A DNA stretch of 64,000 nt, taken from the IMG/VR virus record IMGVR_UViG_3300041964_000148; one strand, 5' to 3'. The notes beneath the pieces were generated by a model that saw only the letters and a program-made list of their open reading frames with translations, was not told the DNA's origin and searched no databases. The stretch comes from a virus (Duplodnaviria > Caudoviricetes). The translations under genes and the position numbers were made by a program. Shown piece by piece: positions 25,245 through 54,080 of this stretch (position 1 is the first letter of the stretch; each line of letters begins with the position of its first letter).

Positions 25245-25359
25245 GATTTTGCTTTAAAAGTGACTACTTTCATTATAACGTAATATGACGTACAAGCGGA
25301 AAGCCTCTACAGAGTTTTCTGTTGTGCAATAATAGTTTTACCCGCGTGTTACTGGGGTT

Positions 25360-26612: not shown

Positions 26613-26670
26613 CTTTTGTTACAATTAGGGAAACACAGTACTCTGTGATCTAATTTTTTAAGGCAAAACC

Positions 26671-31117: not shown

Positions 31118-32577
31118 CGTACTCCCTCGGCTGAAGCACGAGGGATTCTCAAAGGATGTTACGAGGCAGGCTGAAGCCGTGCCTCTCCACCCTTTTTCCT
31201 GCTTCGCAGACTCTTAACTAGACCGTTGCCAGTCCCCGTCAGACCGTCTCCACAGGCAATTTCTTCCACGCTGCGTCCCAGCGCAGAGATCCCTCTATTG
31301 CGGATCACTTGTGCTGCTGCCACATCCCGATGGGTTGTGTAGCCGCATTCAGGACAAGCATGAAGCCTGTCGCTTAGTTCTTTCTTTCCGGTATGCGTAT
31401 CGCATTGAGGACACACTTGCGAGGTGTAATCCTTATTCACCTTATCGAAGTAAACACCCCGTTTCCAGCACACCCATTGCAGAATTGAAACGAACTGTCC
31501 AAATCCAGCATCAAGGGTATGTTTACCAAGCATCCCTTTTGCCCAAGTGCGGAAGTTGATATCCTCAACAAACAGCATTCCAGCTTCGTCACAAAGTTTG
31601 TGAGCCAACTTGAAATGCCAGTCTTTACGAGTGTCCGCAATGCGCTGGTGCAATCGTGCAATTTTCCGAGTGAGCCTGTGCCGATTATTTGAGCCTTTCT
31701 GCTTGTGCTTCAGCCTGCGTTGCAGCAATGTCAGCTTGCGTTGCAGTTCTTGAAGGAAACGAGGGCGTTCAATCAGCGCTCCATCAGACGTTGCAGCAAA
31801 TTTGTCTAACCCTAAATCAATCCCCCTCGGATGCCCACTAGGGACAGGATCAGGTATATTTACATCACATTCAAGCGTGAACATCAGGAAGTACCCCGAA
31901 GCCTTACGAACCACCCGAACCTGCTTCACGATAAAGCCGTCCGGGATGTCGCGAGACTTGACGTATTCCACCCACCCCAACTGTGGCAATTTGATTTGAC
32001 TCCCCTTCAAGAATTGAGACTTACCCAACTGCGGATACACAAATGAGCGCATCCGATATCGGTTCTTGAATCGGGGAAACCCCAGACCTTTGCGCTTCAT
32101 GTCGATAAAAGCGGTTTCCAGCTTTCTCAGAACTTGCTGCAACACCTGAGCATTCACAGTTTTAAGTTCTCTTAATTGCTCTTTTGCCAGTGTTAGAGAC
32201 TTGGCTTGAGCGTTGTAGTTAGGGTAAGGTTCATCAGCCGAGATGATGTACTCAGAAATGATGGAGCAAGCATTTACCGGACATTTACGAGAATTAATCC
32301 AGTCTTTGCGTTCACGTAAAGCAAAGTTCCAGACTTTTCGACACACCATTAAAGTGTGTTCGATTAGCTGGACTTGCTCATCTGTCGGCATTGCTTTGTA
32401 CTCGTAAGTTAGGGTTAACACTGCTTTCACCTCCTTCTACAAATCATACCCTAGCTTTGTAGAAGTTGAGACAAAGCGTAAATACTCTTACGATTAAACC
32501 CGGACAAACAGAGGGCTAAAGCCCTGAGTTAGCTTTCATCCCCCGGTTGAAACGCGGGGGTTCTCAGCATCTTTTCG
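31114..32577 (-). mobile_element. IS200/IS605-family element (tnpB only)
   Basis: Right end hairpin ending ..GTCAA; left-end hairpin with GGGGATGAAAGC as in the element at 10102; preceded by TTTAT. Confidence 0.8.
31159..32430 (-). CDS. tnpB: RNA-guided endonuclease TnpB
   Basis: GIDLG / FVEDI / HRDVA; CPQC..CPEC. Confidence 0.93.
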   Translation of the reverse strand: MKAVLTLTYEYKAMPTDEQVQLIEHTLMVCRKVWNFALRERKDWINSRKCPVNACSIISEYIISADEPYPNYNAQAKSLTLAKEQLRELKTVNAQVLQQVLRKLETAFIDMKRKGLGFPRFKNRYRMRSFVYPQLGKSQFLKGSQIKLPQLGWVEYVKSRDIPDGFIVKQVRVVRKASGYFLMFTLECDVNIPDPVPSGHPRGIDLGLDKFAATSDGALIERPRFLQELQRKLTLLQRRLKHKQKGSNNRHRLTRKIARLHQRIADTRKDWHFKLAHKLCDEAGMLFVEDINFRTWAKGMLGKHTLDAGFGQFVSILQWVCWKRGVYFDKVNKDYTSQVCPQCDTHTGKKELSDRLHACPECGYTTHRDVAAAQVIRNRGISALGRSVEEIACGDGLTGTGNGLVKSLRSRKKGGEARLQPAS

Positions 32578-38712: not shown

Positions 38713-39183
38713 TTGTCGTATTACAGAGGTTTTTACGCTGTGCCTCGTTATTCCAATACACTCGAAGTCCGCTTTAATGTAGTCGAGGAGCATCGCTGGG
38801 AAGTTTACCAGGAGATGCCCAGCGTTGCTCAGTTGGGTGCCAGTGAGGCTCTCAAGCGCGACGGCTGGGTCTTTTTTGTCCGAGACAGCGATCGCATCGT
38901 TCCGTATTATTTCGATGCCAGTAGCCTAACTATTTACCCATTTACAGGCAATGTTGTCGTTGCCCCTCGGAAACTTAGGACACGCATCGGCAATGGGACA
39001 GATCGAGAATTTATCGTTAACCACGGGTTCAACTCTTTGGATGTTGATGCGTCGGCATGGGAGTTTGTCGCAACTCGTAGGTACAGAATTGAATGTAATA
39101 TCTTTAAGGTAGATGAAAATAGTATAGGTTTTGAGTTTTCCGAGCCGCCGACACAGGATGCTATCGAAGTTTTGATCGGTTAG
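38713..39183 (+). CDS. putative tail-associated protein
   Basis: IGNG....F.V.H.FN..DV...D.NSI..F..PP domain, related to the C-terminus of 33655..36525. Confidence 0.55.
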   Translation: MSYYRGFYAVPRYSNTLEVRFNVVEEHRWEVYQEMPSVAQLGASEALKRDGWVFFVRDSDRIVPYYFDASSLTIYPFTGNVVVAPRKLRTRIGNGTDREFIVNHGFNSLDVDASAWEFVATRRYRIECNIFKVDENSIGFEFSEPPTQDAIEVLIG

Positions 39184-39193
39184 ATTAAGGCAC

Positions 39194-39232
39194 AAAAAAA
39201 GCCCCCACCAGGATTTCCTGGTGGGGCTTTTT
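39194..39232. terminator. bidirectional terminator closing the ribozyme operon
   Basis: A7-GCCCCCACCAGGA-TT-TCCTGGTGGGGC-T5. Confidence 0.85.
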
Positions 39233-39267
39233 AATATTTAGTGCCTGTTATTTGGCTTCAAAAAAGT

Positions 39268-40251
39268 TTAAGCACTGGCTACAGTTTTCTTAATTACTGT
39301 AAGAACTTCTTCGGGGGAGAGTAGAGATGCATATCCCTGTTCACTTCCTCCTACTTCAGAGTTCCCACCCCAACGCTTCTCAACCTCTTCCTCTCCCCGC
39401 TTTTGGGATTCAAGGAAATTGAGTTCGTCAAAGACAGCTTGAGAATTCCAAGTCGCCTCTGGCGAATAGCGGCCAATAGTGTACTTGAGATGTGGCTCAA
39501 ATTTGCCATTCGCCGTAAATTCGGGGTTGTATGCGATCGCATACTTGCCGAAGCGGTAGGCATAACCTGTCGCCCCAATATGCGCTGATTCTACGACAGC
39601 GATGTCGCCATCAACGGCAATGAGTTTGGATGCCTTGAATGCATCCATTTTTGTTTTGATGCCCTTTTCGCGGCTACCCTCTGGTTCAACACCAGCGATA
39701 AGCCACTTCAGGACATTTACAACCTTTTGCTTAACTCCGACAGAATCGACTGCTCGTTCACGCACATAGGAGTGCATGGCAATTAGCGGATCTTTCTGGA
39801 GTTTTTCTGCATACTCCTCTGAAGACATTTCTGTCTGTGATTCTCGTACCCAGCCCCCCTTGTCGGATTTGTCCACAAGGGCAATTCGTTGAACGAAATC
39901 TCCATCAGGCTGGACACCCAGCTCATCAAAGCTTAACTGTCCATGCTTTTTAAGGAGGACTGCGGCGGCGCAGTACGCATCCAGATCTTCTTTGCCGATA
40001 AATACGGCACTGTCATGAGGTACTCGCCAGAAATGTCCGTCTGTGAACATTTCGATGGCAAAGGCCGCCGCGCTATATGGCTTATTACTTCCATCATGCT
40101 GAGGATCGATATTGAAATCCAAGGCATCAACTGCCCAAGGATAGGCTTCGGCTCCAAAGCATAAGCAGTCATATTCCTTCTTGATGCGCTCAATGAGAGC
40201 GACATCTTCGGCTTGATTGCGGGGGTTTAGGACGTAGAATGTAATGCTCAT
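39268..40251 (-). CDS. hypothetical protein, possible DHH-like phosphoesterase fold
   Basis: ID.QH, DLD, KYTI, WGG..VGGS; start moved to the ATG after GCAAAACC, downstream of the ribozyme. Confidence 0.65.
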   Translation of the reverse strand: MSITFYVLNPRNQAEDVALIERIKKEYDCLCFGAEAYPWAVDALDFNIDPQHDGSNKPYSAAAFAIEMFTDGHFWRVPHDSAVFIGKEDLDAYCAAAVLLKKHGQLSFDELGVQPDGDFVQRIALVDKSDKGGWVRESQTEMSSEEYAEKLQKDPLIAMHSYVRERAVDSVGVKQKVVNVLKWLIAGVEPEGSREKGIKTKMDAFKASKLIAVDGDIAVVESAHIGATGYAYRFGKYAIAYNPEFTANGKFEPHLKYTIGRYSPEATWNSQAVFDELNFLESQKRGEEEVEKRWGGNSEVGGSEQGYASLLSPEEVLTVIKKTVASA

Positions 40252-40291
40252 GGGTTTTGCTTGATCACGGAGAACCGTGACGATAGTTTTT

Positions 40292-40344
40292 GCTCCCTCA
40301 CTATTTTTCACCCAGGCTTGGGACTGGCGTCGGCTAGTTTAAGC
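40292..40344 (-). ncRNA. twister ribozyme (P1 type)
   Basis: GCU-UAA-ACUA-GC-CGACG-CCAG-UCCCAAGC-CUGG-GUGAAAAA-UAGU-GAGGG-AGC; predicted cut U40341/A40340. Confidence 0.88.
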
Positions 40345-40384
40345 GGCTCCCCCAAGGGGAGCCTAACTTTCATTAAACTGAGAT

Positions 40385-40873
40385 TTACTTTGATAACTTA
40401 TTTACCCATTGAAGCTGTGGGTTTTGCTCTCTAAAGGCAGAATCCCATTTATATCGCCCCATTTCTGGATGGTATGGAAAGTCATTTTCCCACCACACAG
40501 AGATACATTTTTTTAGCGATTCTAAGGTTATCATTCCTTCTACTGATGGAACACTATACCCAGAAGCCGCAGATGACTGTATTTGGGAACAAGGTATTGC
40601 TTTGAAATTAATTCCCCGCTCTAAACATCGCGAGATAATTTCCCCTAAAGCAAATATGGAATCTCTTCCAAAATCTAAAGATAGGCAATTTTGAGATTCT
40701 TGATATCGAACCTGAGAAGTGTAACTAAGAAGACTGCTATCTGGTAACTGTGTCGCAGTTCCATGATAATCGTCGTCTTCGTCTATTTTGGGAGCAAACG
40801 AGGGAAATACCTGAAATACTGCTTCTTTCGCTAGCTCTGAATTTTCTAAGAATAAAAATCTGGCTGAAAACAT
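40385..40873 (-). CDS. hypothetical protein
   Basis: GCAAAACCATG leader; flanked by ribozymes. Confidence 0.7.
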   Translation of the reverse strand: MFSARFLFLENSELAKEAVFQVFPSFAPKIDEDDDYHGTATQLPDSSLLSYTSQVRYQESQNCLSLDFGRDSIFALGEIISRCLERGINFKAIPCSQIQSSAASGYSVPSVEGMITLESLKKCISVWWENDFPYHPEMGRYKWDSAFREQNPQLQWVNKLSK

Positions 40874-40893
40874 GGTTTTGCATTATAAATTTT

Positions 40894-40945
40894 GCTCCCT
40901 CTGCATTTTTATCCAGGCTGGGGACTGGCATTGGCTGCATTAAGC
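40894..40945 (-). ncRNA. twister ribozyme (P1 type)
   Basis: GCU-UAA-UGCA-GC-CAAUG-CCAG-UCCCCAGC-CUGG-AUAAAAA-UGCA-GAGGG-AGC, close to the canonical rice twister; predicted cut U40942/A40941. Confidence 0.92.
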
Positions 40946-40970
40946 GGCTCCCAAGGGAGAGCCTTTACAT

Positions 40971-41996
40971 TTATATGAGCGCTTCGTGGGCGATCGCATT
41001 AATGTAAGCGATCGCATCCTCGTAGGTTGGGCGAGATGGGTACTCGTGAACCCCTATTTTTAGCTCAAACAGGGAAACTGGTTCCCCGAACGGGTCATTT
41101 GGGTTCTGCACCCTCGGACTTTTGCTTGTCGAGTGGCAGTATCGATCAAATAGGATGTATTTTTCTAACGTCCCTCCTTGGAGGAAGCGCTCAACGTCTT
41201 CCTCAAATGTTCGGTCTTTTGGAATAGAGTATTCTACTCCTTGAGTCCAAAAAGACTTGGACTGAACAAGGGGCATTGCTAACTTTACATGGCGTTTGCC
41301 AAGTTCAGTTGCCGCTAAATCCCAGAAAACTGCCAAGGCTTGTAGTAACTCTTCCGAGAGATCTTCTCGGTCTAGATTTAAACTGGACAACGGATGCCCA
41401 ATAACTTCATGATTGCCGTATCCTGTCCAGCGACAGTAATCCAACAAAAATTCCTCAGGGTTTTCGGGGACAACCCATCCCCATTTAATCGCTAGAAGAA
41501 GACCTTCTGCGATCGCCCATCCTACCGAATTGTTGGGGCAGTGAAGCAATCGCTGCGTCAGTCGCCCCTCTTGGGCGGCTTCAAGACTGTCATTGTTCTG
41601 GTAGCTTGTCCAGCACCAGGCCCAAGCTACAAGAGAACTTCGTAAATGTGCATGGGCGAAGTTGGGTGTATAGTTTAGGGCAATTACATCGAATATTGTT
41701 GTCCAGTAGCCCCACTCTGCTATTTCCGCCAACTTCCCCCATCCCATTTGGTTATGGGGATCGGGCAGATCGTATATCGGCTTCTCGAATATCGCGTATT
41801 CGCTTATTCCAGTTGCAATTCGTGCAATTTCTCGCACCTTTTCCGGATGTTCGTCGTCGCAGCAGGCAAGCAGATATCTTGCCGCGAATGACAAGTCACT
41901 TCCGTCTTCCAACGCTGCTATCTTCTCGATCTCTTCAATATGGCGATTGTTGATAATTGAGGCGATCATTCGTTCGATTTTTTCTTCAGATTGCAT
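40971..41996 (-). CDS. hypothetical protein
   Basis: 341-aa ORF; GCAAAACCATG leader. Confidence 0.75.
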   Translation of the reverse strand: MQSEEKIERMIASIINNRHIEEIEKIAALEDGSDLSFAARYLLACCDDEHPEKVREIARIATGISEYAIFEKPIYDLPDPHNQMGWGKLAEIAEWGYWTTIFDVIALNYTPNFAHAHLRSSLVAWAWCWTSYQNNDSLEAAQEGRLTQRLLHCPNNSVGWAIAEGLLLAIKWGWVVPENPEEFLLDYCRWTGYGNHEVIGHPLSSLNLDREDLSEELLQALAVFWDLAATELGKRHVKLAMPLVQSKSFWTQGVEYSIPKDRTFEEDVERFLQGGTLEKYILFDRYCHSTSKSPRVQNPNDPFGEPVSLFELKIGVHEYPSRPTYEDAIAYINAIAHEALI

Positions 41997-42035
41997 GGTT
42001 TTGCTTGATCACGGAGAACCGTGACGATAGTTTTT

Positions 42036-42088
42036 GCTCCCTCACTATTTTTCACCCAGGCTTGGGACTGGCGTCGGCTAGTTTAAGC
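42036..42088 (-). ncRNA. twister ribozyme (P1 type)
   Basis: Identical to the copy at 40292..40344; predicted cut U42085/A42084. Confidence 0.88.
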
Positions 42089-42113
42089 GGCTCCCAAGAG
42101 GGAGCCTATGTTG

Positions 42114-42695
42114 TTAGTTGTAAATAGAAGAGATATCCAAAATCTCATCTATCTTTTCCTGGTCTAATCCGATAATTTCGCGTTGTTTATAATAGCGGAA
42201 ATTATCATTTTCAGACATGAATTGGATGCGTTCAGCAATAGGGAGGCGAATGATTCGCTCATACGTTACTGGTAGTAGTATGTAGAAATCGTCTGAACTG
42301 AACTCAGGGTCATACCCTAAATCATCTTCGTCTGAAGAGATCCAACACGCTAGCCCAGCTTCCATTTGAAGTTTTTTTTCTACCTCGAAAACTACTTCAG
42401 ATATTCCAGCCTTTCCAGATGAAAAACAATGCCAGTCATAAGGCGCGTTATCTGATTTGTATAGGTTCGCGAACCTGTTGTCTGGAATGTCTTCGTTGCA
42501 GTGAAAAGATGCTGCTATGCCTTGGCTTCCCATCATTCCATTCCAGTGGAGCTGAATGTTTTGAACCACAATTTTTCGATTGAACAAATCCAGCATGAGC
42601 TGAATTTCTTGGTCGGTTACGAAATGGCGCTTTATTTGACGCATTTGGTGATGTGCTTCGTATTTGTACTCGTACATTAGAATTTTCCCTTTCAT
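42114..42695 (-). CDS. hypothetical protein
   Basis: Start moved to MKGKIL after AGCAAAACC. Confidence 0.7.
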   Translation of the reverse strand: MKGKILMYEYKYEAHHQMRQIKRHFVTDQEIQLMLDLFNRKIVVQNIQLHWNGMMGSQGIAASFHCNEDIPDNRFANLYKSDNAPYDWHCFSSGKAGISEVVFEVEKKLQMEAGLACWISSDEDDLGYDPEFSSDDFYILLPVTYERIIRLPIAERIQFMSENDNFRYYKQREIIGLDQEKIDEILDISSIYN

Positions 42696-42710
42696 GGTTT
42701 TGCTGATTTT

Positions 42711-42764
42711 CTCAATTGGTTGGCTATCCACACCCGCCGCGAGGAGGCTTGAGTATTTGGGTGC
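42711..42764 (-). ncRNA. minimal HDV-like ribozyme (no P4)
   Basis: GCACCC-AAAUA-CUCAA-GCC-UCCUCGC-GGC-GGGUGU-GG-AUAGCCAA-CCAA-UUGAG; predicted cut 5' of G42764. Confidence 0.85.
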
Positions 42765-42808
42765 ATTGCCCCCGAAGGGGCAGGGGAGGATTTAATCCTC
42801 TAAGAACA

Positions 42809-42982
42809 CTAAGGAGGAGTGTCATTTTCTTCGCTTTTCCACCTCTCCTCTAAGAAGTTTTCGCGCTCTAGCTCTTCATTCTTCTGTCCGGCATACCAGA
42901 CCATTAATTGGTTGAGTTTCCATGCGTTTTCAGCATTGGGGTTAGCTTTGAAGGCTTCAAAAGCTTTATCTAGTTGGTTCAT
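42809..42982 (-). CDS. small hypothetical protein
   Basis: MNQLDKAFEAF.. after an AAAGG RBS, downstream of the twister. Confidence 0.65.
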   Translation of the reverse strand: MNQLDKAFEAFKANPNAENAWKLNQLMVWYAGQKNEELERENFLEERWKSEENDTPP

Positions 42983-43001
42983 TGATTTACCTTTGTAAAT
43001 T

Positions 43002-43057
43002 ACACCTCTCTGCGTTAGGGGCTGGAGACCCTTAGCTTTCGCTAGGCGCATTAGTAC
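43002..43057 (-). ncRNA. twister ribozyme with P3 hairpin
   Basis: GUAC-UAA-UGCGCC-UAGC-GAAA-GCUA-AGGG-UCUCCAGC-CCCU-AA-CGCA-GAGAG-GUGU; pseudoknot covaries to CUC/GAG; predicted cut U43053/A43052. Confidence 0.8.
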
Positions 43058-43106
43058 GCCCCCAAAGGGGCGGGGGAGGATTTAATCCTCTAGATTTACG
43101 CTATTA

Positions 43107-43385
43107 TCAACTAGCCAATTTAACATTCCATTGACTTCCCATACCCATGTCATACTGACGACGGCACGAGACTGGAAACTTCTCTCCATCTATTTCTGTA
43201 TGTCCTTTGTAGTCTTCTCCTCCTCCGTAAGCGTCAGAAAAAGTATTGGTACGCTCAAGATGAAAGACTAAATCATAGCGAGTACTCTCTGGAATAGTTC
43301 TAATTTTGTCAAGCAGTGATGGAGTCCGGATGTGTACTCCGTCAGTTACCGCTTTTCTCATTTGTTCCATTGTCCACTGTGTCAT
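43107..43385 (-). CDS. hypothetical protein
   Basis: 92-aa ORF between ribozymes; AAGGA RBS. Confidence 0.7.
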   Translation of the reverse strand: MTQWTMEQMRKAVTDGVHIRTPSLLDKIRTIPESTRYDLVFHLERTNTFSDAYGGGEDYKGHTEIDGEKFPVSCRRQYDMGMGSQWNVKLAS

Positions 43386-43417
43386 TTGTTTTTCCTTGTC
43401 ATGGTTTTGCTGATTTT

Positions 43418-43471
43418 CTCAATTAGTTGTATATCCACACCCGCCACGAGGAGGCTTGAGTATTTGGGTGC
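43418..43471 (-). ncRNA. minimal HDV-like ribozyme (no P4)
   Basis: GCACCC-AAAUA-CUCAA-GCC-UCCUCGU-GGC-GGGUGU-GG-AUAUACAA-CUAA-UUGAG; predicted cut 5' of G43471. Confidence 0.88.
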
Positions 43472-43506
43472 ATGGGCGATAACTCAAGAGAGCGATCGCC
43501 TGACTA

Positions 43507-44334
43507 TTAGTCCTTTAAATAAATTGCGTTAGGTGGTACGGGGGTTAGTACTTCCTCCGTCTCGTAATCCCAAGGTTCTTGACTTTTTCGCTTATGAACG
43601 AAAGAGACCAAAAACTTTTGATTACCCTCTTCTTTAAGAAGTTCTGAACGCATATCAACGTTGATTCTAGGAGCATCATTTAGCTCCCATTGATTGTCAG
43701 GAACCTCTAGTAAATCAACAAGCATATTGGGTTTGTTGATTAACCATTTTTCAATACTCTCGAAGTCGTCAAGGCTGCAACCGTAGTAGCCCTGTAGAGT
43801 TAAGTTGAGCGTTTTATCTACGCTTATTCCGCTCCATCCACTGTCATAGTAGTATGGGACAGATTCTAACCCTTTTTCAAGGATTGATGTTGCTGCAAAT
43901 TGAATTGCTTCTTCACAAGAGTGAAACTCTTTGCCTAGTAATTGCTGAAGAGTTGCTTGGAGATCCTTTAAAGGTTTTCCAAAAACTACGTCTTTAGCAG
44001 CAAAGACTACTTCATTGCGAAACCGTTCATCGCTAGCAGCTAATGTTACTGCCTCTGCGGCTGTGACAAGAATGCATCTTCCGTCCCAGTCTTCATCTTC
44101 GTCTCGTGGAACGTCGTACCCATCTTTGGCGAGGAATACCAGCGCTTCATCGGGAATGAGGATTTCATAAATTCCGAAGTTATCCCATCCTTCTGGAAGG
44201 TATGGGTAGGCGAACCCAACCTTTCCCTCTAATAAGAAAGAGAGGTGATTGCGATCGCTTCCGTGGTAACTGTCTCCTGGTTTTACAGGGGAAAAGTTTA
44301 TTCCACTTCCTAAGCTGTGATAGAAAATTGTCAT
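43507..44334 (-). CDS. hypothetical protein
   Basis: 275-aa ORF; AAAGCAAAACCAATG leader. Confidence 0.75.
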   Translation of the reverse strand: MTIFYHSLGSGINFSPVKPGDSYHGSDRNHLSFLLEGKVGFAYPYLPEGWDNFGIYEILIPDEALVFLAKDGYDVPRDEDEDWDGRCILVTAAEAVTLAASDERFRNEVVFAAKDVVFGKPLKDLQATLQQLLGKEFHSCEEAIQFAATSILEKGLESVPYYYDSGWSGISVDKTLNLTLQGYYGCSLDDFESIEKWLINKPNMLVDLLEVPDNQWELNDAPRINVDMRSELLKEEGNQKFLVSFVHKRKSQEPWDYETEEVLTPVPPNAIYLKD

Positions 44335-44354
44335 TGGTTTTGCTTTAATTAAAT

Positions 44355-44414
44355 GTACCCTTCTGCGTTTATTCAGACTTAGGACTGACAGCTAATAGCT
44401 GGTCGCATTAGTAC
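44355..44414 (-). ncRNA. twister ribozyme with P3 hairpin
   Basis: GUAC-UAA-UGCG-AC-CAGCU-AUU-AGCUG-UCAG-UCCUAAGU-CUGA-AUAAA-CGCA-GAAGG-GUAC; both pseudoknots covary (CCU/AGG, AC/GU); predicted cut U44410/A44409. Confidence 0.9.
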
Positions 44415-44443
44415 GCCCCCGAAGGGGCATTAGTTTATCTGTA

Positions 44444-45115
44444 TCAAGAAACGGCTTCAAAGATTGAAGCTAAATTCTTGAAAGTTTTGAAATAAAATGT
44501 GCCGTATTTTACCCATTGATGGTAGTTACCATCATGAATGGGCGTATGCTCACTTGAGCGAGCATCATACACAACTGGATTACTTGGAAGTGTTCGTATC
44601 TTTTGCTCCATCCCTTCAATTAGAAGGGTTGAAGAGATTTTATCCCACCACAGCACCCATAAGTCATCCCAAGCTCGTCGCCCGTCTGCTATCTGCATCT
44701 CTGGATAAAGACACAAGAAAACAAACTCAGGCATTAGTTCTTCCCAACTATAGGGAATTCCTTGTCGGCGATGGTCTTTTTTCTCAACCATTTTTGGCTG
44801 TTTTTTCATGAATTCTGCGATCACTGTCGGTTGCAGTAACGGGACAGGGATACAAGCGTAAGCTTCCCCTTCTCCTATAGATATTCCGGCTAAGTCGTAG
44901 TAGGCGTTGTCTCCTGCATCTTCGTAGACCAGGGAACAAGCCCCTGACTCATAAGCAGTAGCCCAAAGCAAGTTGGCGTAGAAAAGGAGGGTTTCATTTC
45001 CCTCGTGTGCCACCGCCTTGGCTTTGAACTTGTTACTTAGATTGATTGCCATTTTTGCTCTGGTAGAAGCATCTGGCATGATTTCAGTTTTGGCATTGAT
45101 TTGTTGATTCGTCAT
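44444..45115 (-). CDS. hypothetical protein
   Basis: Start moved to MTNQQ, downstream of the ribozyme. Confidence 0.7.
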   Translation of the reverse strand: MTNQQINAKTEIMPDASTRAKMAINLSNKFKAKAVAHEGNETLLFYANLLWATAYESGACSLVYEDAGDNAYYDLAGISIGEGEAYACIPVPLLQPTVIAEFMKKQPKMVEKKDHRRQGIPYSWEELMPEFVFLCLYPEMQIADGRRAWDDLWVLWWDKISSTLLIEGMEQKIRTLPSNPVVYDARSSEHTPIHDGNYHQWVKYGTFYFKTFKNLASIFEAVS

Positions 45116-45141
45116 TGTTTTTACTGATGGTTTTGCTTTAT

Positions 45142-45194
45142 GTTCAATTGGTTGGTTATCCGCACCCGCCGCGTGGAGGCTTGAACTTGGGTGC
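45142..45194 (-). ncRNA. minimal HDV-like ribozyme (no P4)
   Basis: GCACCC-AA-GUUCAA-GCC-UCCACGC-GGC-GGGUGC-GG-AUAACCAA-CCAA-UUGAAC; P2 covaries relative to the other two copies; predicted cut 5' of G45194. Confidence 0.87.
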
Positions 45195-45219
45195 ATTGCC
45201 CCCGAAGGGGCGGGAGGAA

Positions 45220-45591
45220 TTAAAGCCTCCAAGTCGTGTCGCGTCCCTGTCTGGGATCTTTTCCGCAACCGTTGTTCTGGGTTGCGGCGACTCTATCTCT
45301 TTCAGCTTGCTTCCGGTTTAGTTCTTCAACTCGCTCAAGTTTTACAAGCTGCTCACGCAATTTCTTGAGTTGAGGCTCTAACTCTTTCTGGAGAGCGATC
45401 GCTGTCCGCTGTTGGGCTCGCAGCGAATCTATCTCCGCTTGAATTGCAGCAAGAACCTCTGGAGGTTTATTCCGCTTCTTGGCTCCAAGAGGCTGGAGTT
45501 TCCTGCTACAATCCCATCGCTGGGATGTAGCAATATCAAGTTGCTGTTCTAGTGAGGCAATTTCTTGTCTCAATTTGTTAATGTCAGTCAT
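45220..45591 (-). CDS. coiled-coil hypothetical protein
   Basis: TAATG-coupled to the upstream gene. Confidence 0.7.
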   Translation of the reverse strand: MTDINKLRQEIASLEQQLDIATSQRWDCSRKLQPLGAKKRNKPPEVLAAIQAEIDSLRAQQRTAIALQKELEPQLKKLREQLVKLERVEELNRKQAERDRVAATQNNGCGKDPRQGRDTTWRL

Positions 45592-46028
45592 TAGTTGCTC
45601 TGGCAGAAATGGCAGTCGTACCCAGTACGGTACTCTCCGCTAGCCCCGTTGAAGGAGCCACAATACCCGCAGTAATCTCCGTTGCCACAGAGATGCTCTG
45701 TGACCGTTTTGAAATACAGGGGCTTGATTAAGCAGAAGTCGCCTTCTACCCGCATTCCATAAGTGCCGAAGCTGCTTCCGTCAGAACGGAATGGGCGGAA
45801 TAGTTTCCACTCTTCGCCCCCATTTTGCCAACTAACAATGGTGTCGTTTTGGCGCTGGGGAGGGGTTTTCTCTCCGATTGCGAAGGTGTCTTTTACTTGG
45901 CAAGCAACAAGATGGTTGTTTTCCATCTCATTGATTTCCTCGGCAGACTTCTCTTTGAAACGAGAAGAACTCCTTACCGTAGTGAAATTTTGGTAAAGAT
46001 CACTCGTGAACATATAGTAATTCATCAT
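45591..46028 (-). CDS. hypothetical protein with C-terminal Zn ribbon (first gene of the operon)
   Basis: CGYCG..CHFC; ATG after AGCAAAACC. Confidence 0.7.
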   Translation of the reverse strand: MMNYYMFTSDLYQNFTTVRSSSRFKEKSAEEINEMENNHLVACQVKDTFAIGEKTPPQRQNDTIVSWQNGGEEWKLFRPFRSDGSSFGTYGMRVEGDFCLIKPLYFKTVTEHLCGNGDYCGYCGSFNGASGEYRTGYDCHFCQSN

Positions 46029-46052
46029 GGTTTTGCTTCCTAACATAATACC

Positions 46053-46082
46053 ATTGTAACATTTGTGTTACACCACCGTCAA
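46053..46082 (-). promoter_or_regulatory. sigma-70 promoter with overlapping palindromic operator
   Basis: TTGACG-N18-TACAAT with TG extension; palindrome TGTAACA-N4-TGTTACA at 46055..46072. Confidence 0.7.
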
Positions 46083-46156
46083 TCTGTCTTTCAACAGTAT
46101 ACGTAGCACTGGAAGACCCCACTTCCATCACTTTCAAGTTATGAAGCTATGAACTA

Positions 46157-46867
46157 TCACAGTCCTCTGGGAGTGGGGCGATAGTGGGCGATCGCACCCT
46201 CTAGTTGCTCAACCAATCTTTCCCTCACACCTGATTGGCTCAGTACTTTGCAATCCTTCCCGTACCGGATGATTTCCCGGATGAACCAGAAGGTACTTGT
46301 AATCCTGCGGGTGACGACCTTCACCTTGCCGTCCCAAGAGTCAAGCCGATCCTTCTCCCCCTCCCTGAAGGCGTGAGCCAGCCCTCTGTATAATTCAAAC
46401 TGCACAGGAATCGTTGCCATGCCTTCTTCCCGCCAAGTGCTGGCATCCAGCGGGAAGAAGGCATCAGCGTTAGTTACGCGGTCAAACCGGAAGCACCAGT
46501 TATGGCGCAGTGGCTCTAAGTCCTGGTTATCCTCGGTTTCATCGCACCAGCATTCGAGGTAGTAGTAGCCCTCTCTAAGCACTCGCTCTCCGTAGCGAAC
46601 GGTGAAGACAAAGGGTTTGCCCGCTGCATCTGCGTAGGAGAAACGAAAGGGAGTTTTGTTGCACAACAGTTCTAAAATCTTCCTCGCCTGGGGTGAGTCT
46701 AGGCTGGGAGGTATGCTTGTTTCGACTGCTTCGTGTGCGATCGCCTTGTAGAAAGCCGTCTGATTTCCTTCTTCGCCCCACAGGTATCCGTGTTTGGCTG
46801 CGATCACCTTGAATTGCCGTTGCTCCTCTTCAGTAACACTGAGTTGGACTGTATTTCGCTTGCTCAT
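46157..46867 (-). CDS. WYL-domain transcriptional regulator (RHH-like N-terminus, cyanobacterial type)
   Basis: QLSV.E.E...F..IA..HG..WG..GN; F.FSY.DA.G; YLECWCDETE; NW.FRFDR; FWF.REI.RYG..C.V. Confidence 0.85.
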   Translation of the reverse strand: MSKRNTVQLSVTEEEQRQFKVIAAKHGYLWGEEGNQTAFYKAIAHEAVETSIPPSLDSPQARKILELLCNKTPFRFSYADAAGKPFVFTVRYGERVLREGYYYLECWCDETEDNQDLEPLRHNWCFRFDRVTNADAFFPLDASTWREEGMATIPVQFELYRGLAHAFREGEKDRLDSWDGKVKVVTRRITSTFWFIREIIRYGKDCKVLSQSGVRERLVEQLEGAIAHYRPTPRGL

Positions 46868-46947
46868 TGACTTTTGAGTGGTAACAGGATAAATATAATT
46901 CTATCCTGCTAATTGCTAGAATAGGGGATGTCCCCTAGGAGAAATTC

Positions 46948-47373
46948 ATGCTCGACATATTCGACAAAGACGGAACCTTAGTTGAAACCAAGTCTGGAGA
47001 ACCGTTTCCCAAGCTTGGCGACCAAAGGTTGATCTCAGGAGTCAAAGAGCGAATCGCGGATTCGGCTGCCGCAGGCAACATCATTGTTGTTGCTAGCAAT
47101 CAAGGTGGCATTGAGAAAGGGTACAAGCCCTTGGAGGATGCGATCGCAGAATTCCAGGAGGTGATGAAACTTCTTCCTGAAATTAGTATGTGTCTTTTTT
47201 GCCCTGATTTTGCAGGTAATGATTGCTGGATAGTTGCAAATCCCTTGCAAAATGCCATTAACGTTTTTCCTCCAGATACAACCCATGTACTCTTCCGCTC
47301 TAGTAGTTTAAACGAAATATTTATTTCATTCGCGTACAGAGCGGGGAAGAACAACAACGTACCAACTCTTTGA
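46948..47373 (+). CDS. HAD-family (GmhB / PNKP 3'-phosphatase-like) protein, apparently C-truncated
   Basis: FDKDGTL, ASNQGG, FCP; later KP and GD motifs not seen. Confidence 0.7.
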   Translation: MLDIFDKDGTLVETKSGEPFPKLGDQRLISGVKERIADSAAAGNIIVVASNQGGIEKGYKPLEDAIAEFQEVMKLLPEISMCLFCPDFAGNDCWIVANPLQNAINVFPPDTTHVLFRSSSLNEIFISFAYRAGKNNNVPTL

Positions 47374-47627
47374 GCGAATTAATTGTAAAAAGTGAAAACC
47401 TTAACTTCCCCGAACTTGCTGGTTCAATTGCCCAGATTACTTGGGCAGAACAAATTCGCCAAAAAACGAGTTCTGAGATTCTGCGGCGAGTCAATCCTGA
47501 ACACAAAAGTAAGTTACTAGAATTGTTACCCATGCTACCAGTGTTGGCAAAAGAGTGGATTGATAATCGCGATAACTCTGTTGATTGGGCAATGTCTAAA
47601 CTCAAACAACTTGCTCGATATCGATAG
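47370..47627 (+). CDS. hypothetical protein
   Basis: PEL.GS..QI.WA..IR..A..WIDNR pattern. Confidence 0.65.
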   Translation: MSELIVKSENLNFPELAGSIAQITWAEQIRQKTSSEILRRVNPEHKSKLLELLPMLPVLAKEWIDNRDNSVDWAMSKLKQLARYR

Positions 47628-51587: not shown

Positions 51588-54080
51588 ATGGTTTCCCTAG
51601 AAAAATTCGTCCGCCCCGACTTCGCCGAAGGTAGATTTACTGATCTAAATGAAGGAAGGATTATGGGTGGAATCCCCGCAGAGATAACTTCTCTGGATGA
51701 CCCAGAAAAAATTGGGCGAATTCAAGTCTGTTGTCCCCTAATTGATGACACTGCAAACCTGCCAAATGGAGAAGATGGTTGGGTTCACGTTATTGAACTT
51801 TTTACGAATAATGCAACTCCCGGTGGAGACCATCGTTTACTTCACCTGGGCAGCCAGGTAATCCTTCTCCCTATATTAGGGCATCCCAACCAAATGATAC
51901 TTCTGGGCTGTATTCCCAACCGAGTGGATCGCCCTTCCCCGGAGGTAAATCGGGCGGAAGGGTTGTATGGGCATCAGACTCAGAACGGAATTTTTAAAAT
52001 CCGCAACGACAAGGAGCAATCAGAAATTAATGCATTCCCCCACGGAGTAACACAACATATCTCTGGCGCTGGGGATATCACCCAGCAAACTAAAGAGGGA
52101 GCGAAGATGCAGCTCAAAGCCGATGGCACCGTTCGTAACGAGAACCCCAAGTCTTCAACGACACTCGCGCCGGATGGCAGTGTAGAGACGCGGAATGCGG
52201 CATCCGGTACCAGTGTACTCACCAAAGACGGCAACTGGGAAATCAAATCTAAAAACCAAGCCTCTCTAAAACTCAACGCCGGCGATGCGGTGATGGAAGG
52301 TCCGAAGTCCCAACTCTCCTCCCTCGTCTCTGACCTTAAGCAAAAACTCGCCGGACCACTTGGGCAAGGCGAGTCCCTTGTGCGCCAAATTGAAGGGCTT
52401 AAGGATTCAATCGGCACCATGAGTGTGGATAACCTACTTGTCCAACTACCTCAGGCGATCGCATCCGTAAACGAAATTATTAAATCCTTTCCCGACGCAT
52501 TAGACACCCTTAACGAACTTAAGAAGTTTTCTGTTGAGGAACTCGGCGATTCGCTCATGGGGCAGGCTAACCACTTCCTCGACAAGGGGATAGGGAATAT
52601 TATCCCTGTAATTCAGAAGGTCTTATCCAGTCCTGGCTCTATTGAAGACAAGGTGAATGAACTAGTACTAAACCTGGGCTATACCGGATCTAAACAAGAC
52701 CTACAGAGGACTTTATCAAGTCTAGACGGGATGCCCGATATCCAGACACAGGCTGTAGTAAGCCTTGTAGCGCCTGGGGGGTTTGAGGCATCGCAGAACA
52801 TATTCGGTTTGGGATTGGAATCTTCCCTGGCTAAACTAGACCTACACCTGAACTCTACTAGACCTGTACTAGAGCTAAACCAGGAATTTACGACTAGCTC
52901 CAGTTCAGATCAAGTTCAGGGCTTGTCAAGTACTAATCAAGACCTAAACCTGGCTAAGGTGAGTGAGATGCTAACTAAACTTGGGATTGATAAAACCAAT
53001 CTAGACCTAGCTGCCATCCTTGACCCCAGCTTCTCCTTTACTCCCTCCCGACAAACTAATCCAAATTCACTCGTCACGGAGAACCGTGATATAAAACAAT
53101 TCCTTAACCAATTAATTGAACGAGAAATCCCCAGCCTCCTTCCTGCTCAACTAAAAGATCTATTCAGCAAGGGCGACGTAACAAATCTGGTTCAACTTGC
53201 CCTAACCGGAGGCAACCCGATGGGTATGTTGCTGGGTCAATCCGCCTCAAAACTTGTTGGGGATTTAGCGCCAACCTTATTGCAGGGTGTCGGACTAGGG
53301 AGTGCGATCGCTCCCGTCCAGAAAATCCTTAGTTCCCTCCAGTCGGGCAAATTGGATGGGGTGGGAGAAATTATTAACGACATCATTCCTGGTTTAGACC
53401 TTGATAAGGTCTTGTCAGGTGGTGTCCAGAGTGTTGTCGAGAACGTATTGCCCGATGTTTTGGGTGGATTAACGGGTAAACTTGGCGGACTCTTTGGTGG
53501 TGGGAAGAAAAAAGCTAACTTCGCCTTCAATTCTCTGGACGGCTCTGCGAAGGGTGGAGTTGTCCGTGCTAGTAAAGACAAAGTTGAAGTGGTGGCAGAC
53601 TCTGCTTTGCCCACTGCCAAGATGGTTGTTACGAAGGCGAAGGCATCCCTCGTTGCTCAAACTGGACTTGCCGAAGTGTTCGCGGGCGGTGCGACGGCTG
53701 GGCTATCTACCCCGTTCGGCTCATTCGGGTTTGGTCCCGATGGCGGAGACCTCTTTTCTAAGGGGGCGATGGCGATGCGAATTGCTCAAGAGCTTGGTAA
53801 GTCGGCGGGGTTGATGCTGCATCCTAAATCTGGCGTGTCCCTGGCTAGTTTTGCCGATAAGAAAAAGACGGCTGAAGTCACAATTGATGAGGGCAATATT
53901 TATATTTTTTCTTACGGCAGTGGACACGATGGTATTGCTGTCACTCCCGATGGTGTTTACCTAGAAGGCTGCCATATCCGATCCCTAGTTAATCGCCTTT
54001 CTAGTTTGGAATCTTCGTTCGCTAACTTATCTATCCAATCTGACTTAGGCGATGATTTCATCGGTGGTGCAATTGTTTAA
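51588..54080 (+). CDS. gp5/VgrG/gpV-like baseplate spike with large internal helical domain
   Basis: OB-fold (A.IT.LDDPE.IGRIQV..G.QV...GHPN...LG), followed by beta-repeats. Confidence 0.8.
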   Translation: MVSLEKFVRPDFAEGRFTDLNEGRIMGGIPAEITSLDDPEKIGRIQVCCPLIDDTANLPNGEDGWVHVIELFTNNATPGGDHRLLHLGSQVILLPILGHPNQMILLGCIPNRVDRPSPEVNRAEGLYGHQTQNGIFKIRNDKEQSEINAFPHGVTQHISGAGDITQQTKEGAKMQLKADGTVRNENPKSSTTLAPDGSVETRNAASGTSVLTKDGNWEIKSKNQASLKLNAGDAVMEGPKSQLSSLVSDLKQKLAGPLGQGESLVRQIEGLKDSIGTMSVDNLLVQLPQAIASVNEIIKSFPDALDTLNELKKFSVEELGDSLMGQANHFLDKGIGNIIPVIQKVLSSPGSIEDKVNELVLNLGYTGSKQDLQRTLSSLDGMPDIQTQAVVSLVAPGGFEASQNIFGLGLESSLAKLDLHLNSTRPVLELNQEFTTSSSSDQVQGLSSTNQDLNLAKVSEMLTKLGIDKTNLDLAAILDPSFSFTPSRQTNPNSLVTENRDIKQFLNQLIEREIPSLLPAQLKDLFSKGDVTNLVQLALTGGNPMGMLLGQSASKLVGDLAPTLLQGVGLGSAIAPVQKILSSLQSGKLDGVGEIINDIIPGLDLDKVLSGGVQSVVENVLPDVLGGLTGKLGGLFGGGKKKANFAFNSLDGSAKGGVVRASKDKVEVVADSALPTAKMVVTKAKASLVAQTGLAEVFAGGATAGLSTPFGSFGFGPDGGDLFSKGAMAMRIAQELGKSAGLMLHPKSGVSLASFADKKKTAEVTIDEGNIYIFSYGSGHDGIAVTPDGVYLEGCHIRSLVNRLSSLESSFANLSIQSDLGDDFIGGAIV

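What the first reader, a model, noticed from the sequence alone, without database searches (positions are those of the whole stretch)
39194..46082. Ribozyme-punctuated operon: eight consecutive gene junctions each carry a predicted self-cleaving ribozyme
Seen: one minus-strand promoter (46053-46082), ten ORFs and one terminator (39194-39232). Every intergenic gap except the TAATG-coupled first pair holds a ribozyme. The 5'->3' order is HDV-like (45194), twister (44414), HDV-like (43471), twister (43057), HDV-like (42764), twister (42088), twister (40945), twister (40344). All eight are in the sense orientation. Established: both classes self-cleave without protein, leaving 2',3'-cyclic phosphate and 5'-OH; phage minimal HDV-like (theta) ribozymes are described mainly beside tRNAs. 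Inference: a ~6.8-kb transcript cuts itself into nine mostly single-gene mRNAs without host RNases. I know of no description of two unrelated ribozyme classes used interchangeably to punctuate a protein-coding operon.
Basis: partly seen in the sequence, partly recalled or inferred. Interest (0 to 1): 0.97.

Follow-up and report, generated by a model that had tools for sequence, protein, structure and literature searches.

The report
Operon punctuated by two ribozyme classes
All eight spacers between the ten genes of one operon, on a mobile element of an uncultured soil-crust cyanobacterium, carry a well-supported self-cutting RNA fold (five twister, three hepatitis-delta-like) that probably cuts the long message into single-gene messages. 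The arrangement is a known kind, but relatives swap the two ribozyme classes, or a terminator plus promoter, at the same junctions, which makes the role of bacterial ribozymes testable.

Summary
A minus-strand array of ten ORFs (46046-39268) has one strong promoter match, one strong terminator and eight intergenic spacers of 97-133 nt. Each spacer holds a stable hairpin, then a sense-strand ribozyme fold, then a conserved A-rich start-codon leader. Five folds are type-P1 twisters: Rfam E 1e-7 to 1e-10 for four, and a custom model E 8e-15 for the fifth. Three are minimal, P4-less HDV-like folds. Both folds covary in their helices, and the twister also in both pseudoknots, across copies from five related metagenome loci.

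New here:
- At orthologous junctions relatives carry either class, or a terminator plus promoter.
- Gene order is reshuffled between relatives.
- Strain-variant contigs join across cassettes within or right beside the ribozyme modules.

Self-cleavage and single-transcript status remain untested; no RNA data exist.

Ribozyme clusters that flank genes in phages and prophages have been published since 2011. Non-tRNA minimal HDV-like ribozymes in phage spacers were reported in 2024. This scan has already found twister, hammerhead plus pistol, and HDV-like arrays on other DNA. This is therefore a new variant of a known kind: very clean and informative, but not categorically new.

The parts
46053..46082 (-). 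Candidate promoter (extended -10 type)
   Evidence: Best sigma-70-like match in 39000-47500. Its -10 region is conserved in L038 and L044.
46096..46126 (-). Conserved palindrome plus -10-like hexamer: possible second promoter or operator
   Evidence: Invariant block in five related loci. The same block recurs in internal spacers of L041 and L049 after terminators.
45591..46046 (-). Gene 1 (likely start at 46028 behind the conserved leader), Cys-rich C-terminus
   Evidence: No family hit.
45220..45591 (-). Gene 2, conserved 123-aa coiled-coil head gene
   Evidence: 67-72% identical in L038, L041, L044, L049.
45138..45219 (-). Junction 1: double hairpin, then HDV-like ribozyme H1 (cut between 45195 and 45194)
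44444..45115 (-). Gene 3 (223 aa)
44355..44428 (-). Junction 2: hairpin, then twister T1 (cut 44410/44409)
43507..44334 (-). Gene 4 (275 aa)
   Evidence: 65% identical to L044 gene 3.
43413..43490 (-). Junction 3: hairpin, then HDV-like H2 (cut 43472/43471)
43107..43385 (-). Gene 5 (92 aa), preceded by a 6-codon mini-ORF that starts at the conserved leader (43402)
   Evidence: Read.
43002..43092 (-). Junction 4: two hairpins, then twister T2 (cut 43053/43052). One mismatch in the T2 pseudoknot.
42809..42982 (-). Gene 6 (57 aa)
42706..42802 (-). Junction 5: the same two-hairpin module as junction 4, then HDV-like H3 (cut 42765/42764)
42114..42695 (-). Gene 7 (193 aa)
42035..42107 (-). Junction 6: hairpin, then twister T3 (cut 42085/42084)
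40971..41996 (-). Gene 8 (341 aa)
   Evidence: Homologues at 51-59% in L038, L041, L044, at other positions in the array.
40893..40964 (-). Junction 7: hairpin, then twister T4 (cut 40942/40941)
40385..40873 (-). Gene 9 (162 aa)
   Evidence: A variant contig joins across it, twister to twister.
40291..40363 (-). Junction 8: hairpin, then twister T5 (cut 40341/40340). The ribozyme is identical to T3, and the two junction modules are 97% identical over 106 nt.
39268..40251 (-). Gene 10 (327 aa), DHH/DHHA1-like phosphoesterase fold; conserved tail gene of the array
   Evidence: pLDDT 91. Foldseek E 2e-5 and VIA Z 10 to pGpG phosphodiesterase, pAp phosphatase and RecJ. It is the last gene in L038, L041 and L044.
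39194..39232 (-). Intrinsic terminator
   Evidence: 10-bp stem with 8 G-C pairs, plus U tract.
46157..46867 (-). WYL/WCX regulator directly upstream, same strand
   Evidence: Pfam WCX 1e-6; PADLOC WYL 9e-13. Same position in L038, L040, L054-L063.
46948..47373 (+). Divergent HAD-IIIA / polynucleotide 3'-phosphatase-like gene
   Evidence: Pfam PNK3P 3e-8. NCBIfam hits are below cut-off. Conserved neighbour.

Best explanation
This is a variable cassette array on a cyanobacterial plasmid- or phage-like element, transcribed as one long RNA from a regulated promoter next to a WYL regulator. Each gene junction is a three-part module: a G+C-rich hairpin, a self-cleaving ribozyme (twister or minimal HDV-like) and an A-rich leader with a fixed 8-nt motif abutting the start codon. 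Co-transcriptional self-cleavage would release up to nine mRNAs. Each upstream product would end 2-4 nt (0-4 by the fold) after a stable hairpin with a 2',3'-cyclic phosphate, which protects it from 3' exonucleases and tailing. Each downstream product would begin with a 5'-hydroxyl on a compact folded ribozyme, a poor substrate for 5'-end-dependent RNases, followed 10-40 nt later by its own translation start. The junction module thus acts as a genetic insulator. Any cassette dropped into the array gets defined ends and its own start, independent of its neighbours. Shown: the folds, their placement, their covariation, the grammar, and the interchange with terminator-promoter pairs in relatives. 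Inferred: cleavage, the single transcript, and the effect on stability.
For: Twister fold:
- Ten distinct copies keep P1, P2, P4 and both pseudoknots through changes on both sides.
- The three T1 pseudoknot pairs occur as CCC/GGG, CCU/AGG, CUC/GAG and UCC/GGA.
- The UAA cleavage site and the GA of the internal loop are invariant (Rfam; independent model).

HDV-like fold:
- Nine distinct copies give 99.3% paired cells.
- 7 of 16 pairs change on both sides (4 in P1, 2 in P2, 1 in P3). 0 of 500 shuffles reach this, and slid controls pair at 31-41%.
- The invariant features are the loop-3 positions U, C, C, C and G, the two P1.1 pairs, and a J4/2 of C-N-A-A directly before the 3' strand of P2.

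Placement and grammar:
- All eight spacers have a hairpin of -11 to -19 kcal/mol ending 0-4 nt before the predicted cut by the fold (2-4 nt in seven; in the eighth the fold pairs the last bases as well).
- None has a promoter or terminator match on the coding strand.

Interchange in relatives:
- The junction after the conserved gene 2 is HDV-like in the window and L041, and twister in L038, L044 and L049, behind the same hairpin.
- Gene 8 is preceded by a twister here and by an HDV-like fold in three relatives.
- The gene family of L041 gene 4 / L044 gene 4 follows a terminator plus promoter in one locus and an HDV-like ribozyme in the other.
- The more distant phage-like L045 puts a terminator plus promoter in the spacers around its gene-2 homologue and has no ribozyme hit.

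Literature:
- Triple hammerhead arrays cut about 2-kb polycistronic RNAs in vitro (PMC3088659).
- Twister-based polycistronic expression works synthetically (PMC9872166).
Against: No cleavage assay and no RNA data exist for this element.
- The four Rfam twister hits lie below Rfam's gathering score (44-56 against 67.2 bits), and the fifth copy gave no Rfam hit.
- The HDV-like folds score only 17-19 bits on Rfam HDV-type models.
- The HDV-like folds lack P4 and have a 6-bp P1.
- Four of the nine copies, including H1, start with G-C rather than the usual G-U wobble.
- Twister T2 has a C.C mismatch in one pseudoknot.
- A second conserved promoter-like block upstream, and unrecognised cyanobacterial promoters, could give several transcripts.
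- The stabilising effect of the ends is inferred from general RNA-decay knowledge, not from this system.
Confidence: 0.7

Rival explanations
1. The junction modules matter mainly at the DNA level. They are dispersed repeats that serve as recombination joints for gaining, losing and reordering cassettes, or they are selfish repeats that spread. RNA cleavage is secondary.
For: - Junctions 6 and 8 are 97% identical over 106 nt; junctions 3 and 5 are 93% identical over 84 nt.
- The two-hairpin module of junctions 4 and 5 is 94% identical yet is fused to different ribozyme classes.
- Contigs of strain variants join 40338 to 40940 (twister to twister, gene 9 gone), 42004 to 45148 (genes 3-7 gone) and 43071 to 45191 (genes 3-5 replaced by 334 nt), and one goes back from 45186 to 42757 (HDV-like to HDV-like).
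- Cassette order differs in every relative.
Against: - Compensatory changes preserve tertiary pseudoknot pairs, and the catalytic nucleotides are invariant. Only selection on the RNA fold explains this.
- Recombination at repeats may be a by-product.
- The joints come from metagenome contigs laid at 85% likeness, so some may be assembly artefacts or other strains.
Confidence: 0.15
2. The ribozymes act mainly in translation or regulation. The cleaved 5' end or the folded ribozyme promotes initiation at the SD-less leader, or cleavage is conditional and tunes each cistron.
For: - Every ribozyme sits 10-40 nt before a conserved SD-less leader.
- Ribozyme self-cleavage can drive cap-independent translation in eukaryotic RNA viruses (PMC13725137).
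Against: - The same leader precedes gene 1 and two genes elsewhere (25245, 26663) that have no ribozyme.
- No ligand-binding extension is visible.
- The published translation effect is eukaryotic.
Confidence: 0.08
3. Internal cistrons, cut at both ends, are ligated by an RtcB-type ligase into circular mRNAs, or their ends are healed by the neighbouring 3'-phosphatase-like enzyme.
For: - The predicted product ends (5'-OH and 2',3'-cyclic phosphate) are what RtcB joins.
- A polynucleotide-3'-phosphatase-like gene is a conserved neighbour.
Against: - No ligase gene was found among the window ORFs scanned (about 40 of 64 candidate ORFs).
- The phosphatase-like gene also accompanies L045, which has no ribozymes.
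- Perreault et al. looked for circular products of hammerhead arrays and saw none.
Confidence: 0.04
4. The folds are decayed or inactive relics, and host RNases do any processing.
For: - Sub-threshold Rfam scores.
- Minimal architectures: no P3 in three twisters, no P4 in the HDV-like folds.
- One pseudoknot mismatch.
Against: The cores are conserved and covary across loci whose proteins are only 50-80% identical. Eight of eight junctions are occupied.
Confidence: 0.03

Closest known systems
Clustered hammerhead ribozymes flanking single genes in prophages (Perreault et al. 2011, PMC3088659); shared gene neighbourhoods of twister, hammerhead, pistol and hatchet (review PMC6765202)
   Same: - Several sense-strand self-cleaving ribozymes sit between small, mostly unknown genes of a mobile element.
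- The proposed role is cutting a long transcript into gene-length mRNAs.
- More than one class can occur in a locus.
   Different: - The classes here are twister plus minimal HDV-like.
- Every junction is occupied.
- A fixed hairpin-ribozyme-leader grammar applies.
- The host is a cyanobacterium.
- Relatives show class substitution and terminator-promoter substitution at orthologous junctions.
Type-P1 twister ribozyme (Rfam RF03160; Roth et al. 2014 as cited in PMC6765202)
   Same: P1, P2, P4, both pseudoknots, the UAA cleavage site and the conserved loop nucleotides are present.
   Different: P3 is reduced to a 5-nt linker in three copies. Scores lie below Rfam's gathering score.
Minimal HDV-like / theta ribozymes of tailed phages (Kienbeck et al. 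2024, PMC10879173; Riccitelli et al. 2014 as cited there)
   Same: - Nested double pseudoknot with a strongly reduced P4.
- Catalytic C first in J4/2.
- Sense orientation in non-coding DNA of a mobile element.
   Different: - Not next to a tRNA: ARAGORN finds no tRNA gene in the window.
- The host is a soil cyanobacterium rather than a gut Bacteroidota phage.
- P1 has 6 bp.
- They stand in for twisters.
Synthetic ribozyme insulators and ribozyme-assisted polycistronic expression (pRAP, PMC9872166)
   Same: A self-cleaving ribozyme between cistrons gives each its own mRNA with defined ends.
   Different: This is natural, and it pairs the ribozyme with a protective upstream hairpin and a common leader.
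Integron cassette arrays (analogy only)
   Same: One promoter drives a variable string of promoterless cassettes separated by structured repeats.
   Different: No integrase or attC-like site was seen. The repeats are RNA catalysts. Exchange looks like ordinary recombination between repeats.

Membership tests
Twister ribozyme, type P1 | Helices P1, P2 and P4 in the type-P1 order | tested here: met
   All five window copies and five from relatives form them. Every helix has pairs changed on both sides.
Twister ribozyme, type P1 | Two pseudoknots between the P4 loop and the two internal loops | tested here: met
   T1 is paired in 10 of 10 copies, with four different triplet pairs. T2 is paired in 8 of 10. 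The window's T2 copy (43002-43057) has one mismatch.
Twister ribozyme, type P1 | Conserved cleavage-site U-A and loop nucleotides | tested here: met
   UAA and the GA of the 3' internal loop are invariant in all ten.
Twister ribozyme, type P1 | Score at or above Rfam's gathering score for RF03160 | tested here: not met
   44.1-55.9 bits against 67.2. E-values are still 1e-7 to 1e-10 in 7.3 kb. The shortfall comes from the short or missing optional P3.
Twister ribozyme, type P1 | Site-specific self-cleavage | not testable with these tools
   Needs in-vitro transcription.
HDV-like ribozyme | Nested double pseudoknot: P1, P1.1, P2, P3 | tested here: met
   16 pairs, 99.3% of cells paired, 7 pairs with changes on both sides, 0 of 500 shuffles as good.
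HDV-like ribozyme | Catalytic cytosine at the first position of J4/2 | tested here: met
   An invariant C is followed by N-A-A and then the 3' strand of P2 in all nine copies. The Rfam drz-agam-1 model aligns it to its own J4/2.
HDV-like ribozyme | G at +1 forming a G-U wobble that closes P1; 7-bp P1 | tested here: inconclusive
   G at +1 is invariant. The pair is G-U in 5 copies and G-C in 4. P1 has 6 bp.
HDV-like ribozyme | P4 helix | tested here: not met
   An unpaired 8-nt linker stands in its place. From my own knowledge, and not checked in a paper here, P4 is dispensable for activity; the theta paper does describe minimal forms with a shortened loop 4.
HDV-like ribozyme | Rfam gathering score of an HDV-type model | tested here: not met
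   17-19 bits against 37-44. The Rfam models are narrow.
Theta ribozymes (tRNA-associated minimal HDV-like) | Cleavage site within 5 nt of a tRNA 3' end | tested here: not met
   ARAGORN finds no tRNA gene in the window. The cuts lie 25-60 nt after protein stop codons.
Theta ribozymes (tRNA-associated minimal HDV-like) | Match to the published RNArobo descriptor | not tested
   The descriptor is given only in a figure, which I could not read.
Ribozyme-punctuated phage/prophage operon (Perreault 2011 type) | Several sense ribozymes flanking genes within one transcription unit of a mobile element | tested here: met
   Eight ribozymes between one promoter and one terminator. The mobile context is shown by TnpB genes, several orphan C5 methylases, a ParM-like gene, and ParA/ParB in the relative L041.

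The most novel reading that the evidence does not exclude
The hairpin-ribozyme-leader junction is a portable natural insulator part, and twister, HDV-like ribozyme and terminator-plus-promoter are interchangeable solutions to the same task. The same modules also serve as recombination joints of an integrase-free cassette array, through which a cyanobacterial mobile element swaps accessory (possibly anti-defence) genes while each newcomer is still expressed.
Probability: 0.3. Interest if true: 0.75.

Novelty: new variant of a known kind. Interest (0 to 1): 0.6.

Why it matters
The 2019 review of the field (PMC6765202) calls the biological roles of bacterial self-cleaving ribozymes "largely elusive". 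This family of loci works as a natural experiment. The same genes, in close relatives, are separated by a twister, by an HDV-like ribozyme or by a terminator plus promoter. That argues the three do the same job, namely making separate mRNAs. It also supplies matched constructs for testing effects on mRNA stability, translation and context-independence. In addition, it extends minimal HDV-like ribozymes from tRNA trimming in gut phages to mRNA punctuation in soil cyanobacteria.

Tried and rejected
- **Whole genome:** none is held, so there was no genome-wide count.
- **RNA evidence:** no RNA holder is listed among public runs. All holders are DNA metagenomes of biocrust and soil, so expression and cleavage ends could not be examined.
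- **Exact HDV-core pattern:** the scan gave 37 hits in GC-rich non-cyanobacterial genomes. All are chance by the covariance model. There were none in viral contigs.
- **Gene 2 profile:** it found no locus in metagenome contigs or viral contigs. Relatives came only through the protein index.
- **Similarity searches:** megablast and blastn of the operon and of three junction modules, plus tblastn of genes 2 and 10, found nothing in reference plasmids or phages.
- **Cargo genes:** Pfam, PHROGs, NCBIfam and PADLOC gave no credible hit for any cargo gene. The Atlas search of gene 8 was uninformative.
- **Papers:** Roth 2014, Weinberg 2015 and the Jimenez 2015 review are not held. Statements about them rest on the 2019 review.
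- **3'-phosphatase-like neighbour:** I considered that it heals the ribozyme-made ends and set the idea aside. The same gene family sits next to the gene-2 homologue in L045, which has no ribozymes.

Full report
**Anatomy**

On the minus strand, ten ORFs run from 46046 to 39268. Genes 1 and 2 overlap by a stop/start at 45591. The other eight junctions are spacers of 97-133 nt. The strongest sigma-70-like match in 39000-47500 is 46082-46053. The only strong minus-strand terminator is 39226-39203 with its U tract. No spacer holds a promoter or terminator match on the coding strand.

Read 5' to 3', every spacer has the same grammar:
- one or two G+C-rich hairpins (-11 to -19 kcal/mol) that end 0-4 nt before the predicted scissile bond by the fold (2-4 nt in seven of the eight);
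- a ribozyme fold;
- 10-40 nt later, an 8-nt A-rich motif that abuts the start codon.

**Twisters**

Rfam at its gathering scores reports nothing in the window. At E-value threshold it reports four type-P1 twister hits, all on the minus strand and all in spacers: 44355-44414, 42035-42089, 40893-40946 and 40291-40345, at 44-56 bits and E 1e-7 to 1e-10.

I built a covariance model from four other twisters, one from this window and three from relatives. Run with filters off on all 64 kb, it finds the fifth copy (43002-43057) at 57 bits, E 8e-15. It finds no site outside the five.

I parsed ten distinct copies from the window and from loci L038, L044 and L049.
- P1, P2 and P4 all keep pairing through changes on both sides.
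- The three T1 pseudoknot pairs occur in four compensating versions.
- T2 also covaries.
- The UAA cleavage site and the GA of the internal loop never change.
- Three copies have only a 5-nt linker in place of the optional P3. This explains the sub-threshold Rfam scores.
- The copy at 43002-43057 has one C.C mismatch in the T2 pseudoknot and may be slower.

**HDV-like folds**

The other three spacers hold a 55-nt nested double pseudoknot. It has a 6-bp P1 starting at G+1 (45194, 43471, 42764), P2 of 5-6 bp and P3 of 3 bp. Its 7-nt loop 3 has the U, C, C, C and G positions invariant; from memory, not checked here, this matches the HDV genomic ribozyme. Two P1.1 pairs follow, then an unpaired 8-nt linker where P4 would be, then a J4/2 of C-N-A-A directly before the 3' strand of P2.

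Nine distinct copies from the window, L038, L041, L042 and L044 give 99.3% paired cells. Seven of 16 pairs change on both sides: four in P1, two in P2 and one in P3. No shuffle in 500 reaches this, and slid controls pair at 31-41%.

A model of the nested part, whose nine training copies include the three in the window, finds only those three in the window (82-88 bits, expected by construction). It rejects all 37 exact-pattern hits from unrelated GC-rich genomes, which reach at most 19.6 bits. On an 81-nt slice, the best Rfam families are two HDV-type models. They lay P1/P3 and P2/P3/J4/2 where I place them, though at only 17 bits. ARAGORN finds no tRNA gene in the window.

**Relatives**

The window comes from a contig of up to 245 kb that is seen in many biocrust samples.
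- The HIP1 octamer occurs 68 times in 64 kb.
- Among plasmid records, the closest relatives of its sigma factor are on Acaryochloris and Nostoc plasmids.
- The window carries three TnpB genes, three or more C5 methylases, DpdA, DUF5131 and a ParM-like gene.
- The relative L041 has ParA and ParB beside the array.

Homologues of genes 8 and 2 led to five diverged loci: L038/39/40, L041/42/43, L044, L049/50 and L045/46/47. The first three (L038, L041, L044) keep the full frame. A WYL/WCX regulator stands upstream in L038/L040; L041 has an unrelated gene there, and L044's upstream gene is cut by the contig end. Genes 1 and 2 stand at the head and a gene-10 homologue at the tail. L049 keeps only a gene-2 homologue followed by a twister. 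The internal cassettes differ in content and order. Gene 8 is the 8th gene here, the 4th in L038, the 3rd in L041 and the 5th in L044.

**Interchange**

- The junction after gene 2 begins with the same hairpin in all loci. It continues as an HDV-like ribozyme in the window and L041, and as a twister in L038, L044 and L049.
- Gene 8 follows a twister here and an HDV-like fold in the three relatives.
- Gene 10 follows a twister in three loci and an HDV-like fold in L041.
- Within the window, the two-hairpin module of junctions 4 and 5 is 94% identical but is fused to a twister in one and an HDV-like fold in the other.
- In L041, one internal spacer is a terminator followed by the conserved promoter block. 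The same gene family in L044 follows an HDV-like ribozyme.
- The more distant, phage-like L045 has a small terminase subunit, a RecD2-like helicase and a gene-2 homologue at 58% identity. It puts a terminator plus a promoter-like box in the spacers around that homologue and has no ribozyme hit.

These substitutions are the best available argument that the ribozymes serve to make separate mRNAs.

**Population variation**

I laid contigs of four soil metagenomes that hold 37-71% of the stretch, at 85% likeness or better. Several join across cassettes within or right beside the junction modules:
- 40338 to 40940 (twister T5 to T4, gene 9 absent);
- 42004 to 45148 (genes 3-7 absent, in two runs);
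- 43071 to 45191 (genes 3-5 replaced by 334 other letters, in three runs);
- a back-joint from 45186 to 42757 (H1 to H3).

Junctions 6 and 8 are 97% identical over 106 nt. This fits recombination between junction repeats. Two caveats apply: these are short-read metagenome contigs, and they were laid at 85% likeness.

**Mechanism**

Established chemistry gives a 2',3'-cyclic phosphate on the upstream product and a 5'-hydroxyl on the downstream one (PMC8782182). By inference, the hairpin just before each cut gives the upstream mRNA a protected 3' end. It may also shield the ribozyme from misfolding with coding sequence. The 5'-OH plus the compact fold protects the downstream mRNA.

The common leader supplies translation. 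That leader is not ribozyme-specific. It also precedes gene 1 and two unrelated genes, at 25245 and 26663. In some cassettes it starts a mini-ORF that overlaps the real start, as at 43402. This suggests it travels with the junction module.

**Cargo**

Nine of the ten proteins match no family. Gene 10 has 222 relatives in the representative library. It folds with pLDDT 91 into a two-domain DHH/DHHA1-like phosphoesterase. Foldseek gives E 2e-5 and VIA-align gives Z 10 over 236-247 residues to pGpG phosphodiesterase PggH, a pAp phosphatase and RecJ. Atlas look-alikes are mostly viral.

An anti-defence role, such as degrading signalling nucleotides, fits the WYL regulator and the Csx3-like and HD genes in L045. 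It remains only a lead.

**Prior knowledge**

- Perreault et al. 2011 described multiple hammerheads flanking single genes in prophages. They proposed processing of long transcripts and showed cleavage of triple arrays in vitro.
- The 2019 review records the shared gene neighbourhoods of twister and hammerhead, their use to find three more classes, and the suggestion that ribozymes process polycistronic transcripts.
- Kienbeck et al. 2024 list 526 non-tRNA theta ribozyme hits, 493 in non-coding regions of phages, function unknown, and only 12 hits in bacterial genomes.
- This scan's own records already hold twister arrays, a hammerhead plus pistol array and two HDV-like arrays on other DNA.

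What I did not find described is the twister plus HDV-like pairing, their substitution (and that of terminator-promoter pairs) at orthologous junctions, the fixed three-part junction grammar, or the cyanobacterial setting.

**Verdict**

The novelty is that of a new variant of a known kind.

Noticed in passing
window 39268-40251 (-): The tail gene of the array folds as a DHH/DHHA1-type phosphoesterase (pLDDT 91; Z 10 to pGpG phosphodiesterase, pAp phosphatase, RecJ). It has 222 relatives, and its look-alike clusters are mostly viral. It may degrade signalling nucleotides or nanoRNA.
   Followed up: partly
window 46948-47373 (+); L040 29-334; L045 3943-4992: A HAD-IIIA / polynucleotide 3'-phosphatase-like gene is a conserved neighbour of the WYL regulator and array. 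A 349-aa form sits near the gene-2 homologue in L045, which lacks ribozymes, so the link is to the gene module and not to the ribozymes.
   Followed up: partly
window 25245-25252 (-), 26663-26670 (+), plus eight sites in the operon: The 8-nt A-rich motif abuts the start codon of gene 1 and of five downstream genes, and lies 1-13 nt upstream of three more. It also abuts the starts of two unrelated genes elsewhere in the window. There are 19 matches against 7 expected. It looks like an element-wide Shine-Dalgarno-less start signal.
   Followed up: partly
window 43382-43402 (-); L044 about 1600-1634 and 2530-2560: In some cassettes the conserved leader's ATG opens a mini-ORF of 2-6 codons that ends at or overlaps the real start codon. 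The leader therefore seems to belong to the junction module rather than to the gene.
   Followed up: no
window 46096-46126 (-); L041 about 11100-11140; L049 about 2290-2330 and 3010-3050: A conserved palindrome followed by a -10-like hexamer recurs at array heads and after internal terminators in relatives. It may be an operator of the WYL regulator or the true promoter.
   Followed up: partly
L053 436-536 and 915-1059: A more distant gene-2 homologue (53% identity) is flanked by spacers that have a strong hairpin but no recognisable twister, HDV-like fold, or clear terminator. These are places to look for another ribozyme class.
   Followed up: no
window 10120-11373, 31159-32430, 54045-55319: Three TnpB (IS605 OrfB) genes lie in the window. 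It also holds three or more orphan C5 DNA methylases (11574-13927, 19956-21341), DUF5131, DpdA and a ParM-like gene. This is a mobile, defence/anti-defence-rich replicon.
   Followed up: no
whole window: The cyanobacterial HIP1 octamer palindrome occurs 68 times in 64 kb, including inside the hairpin of junction 3 and in P1 of one HDV-like copy of L041.
   Followed up: no
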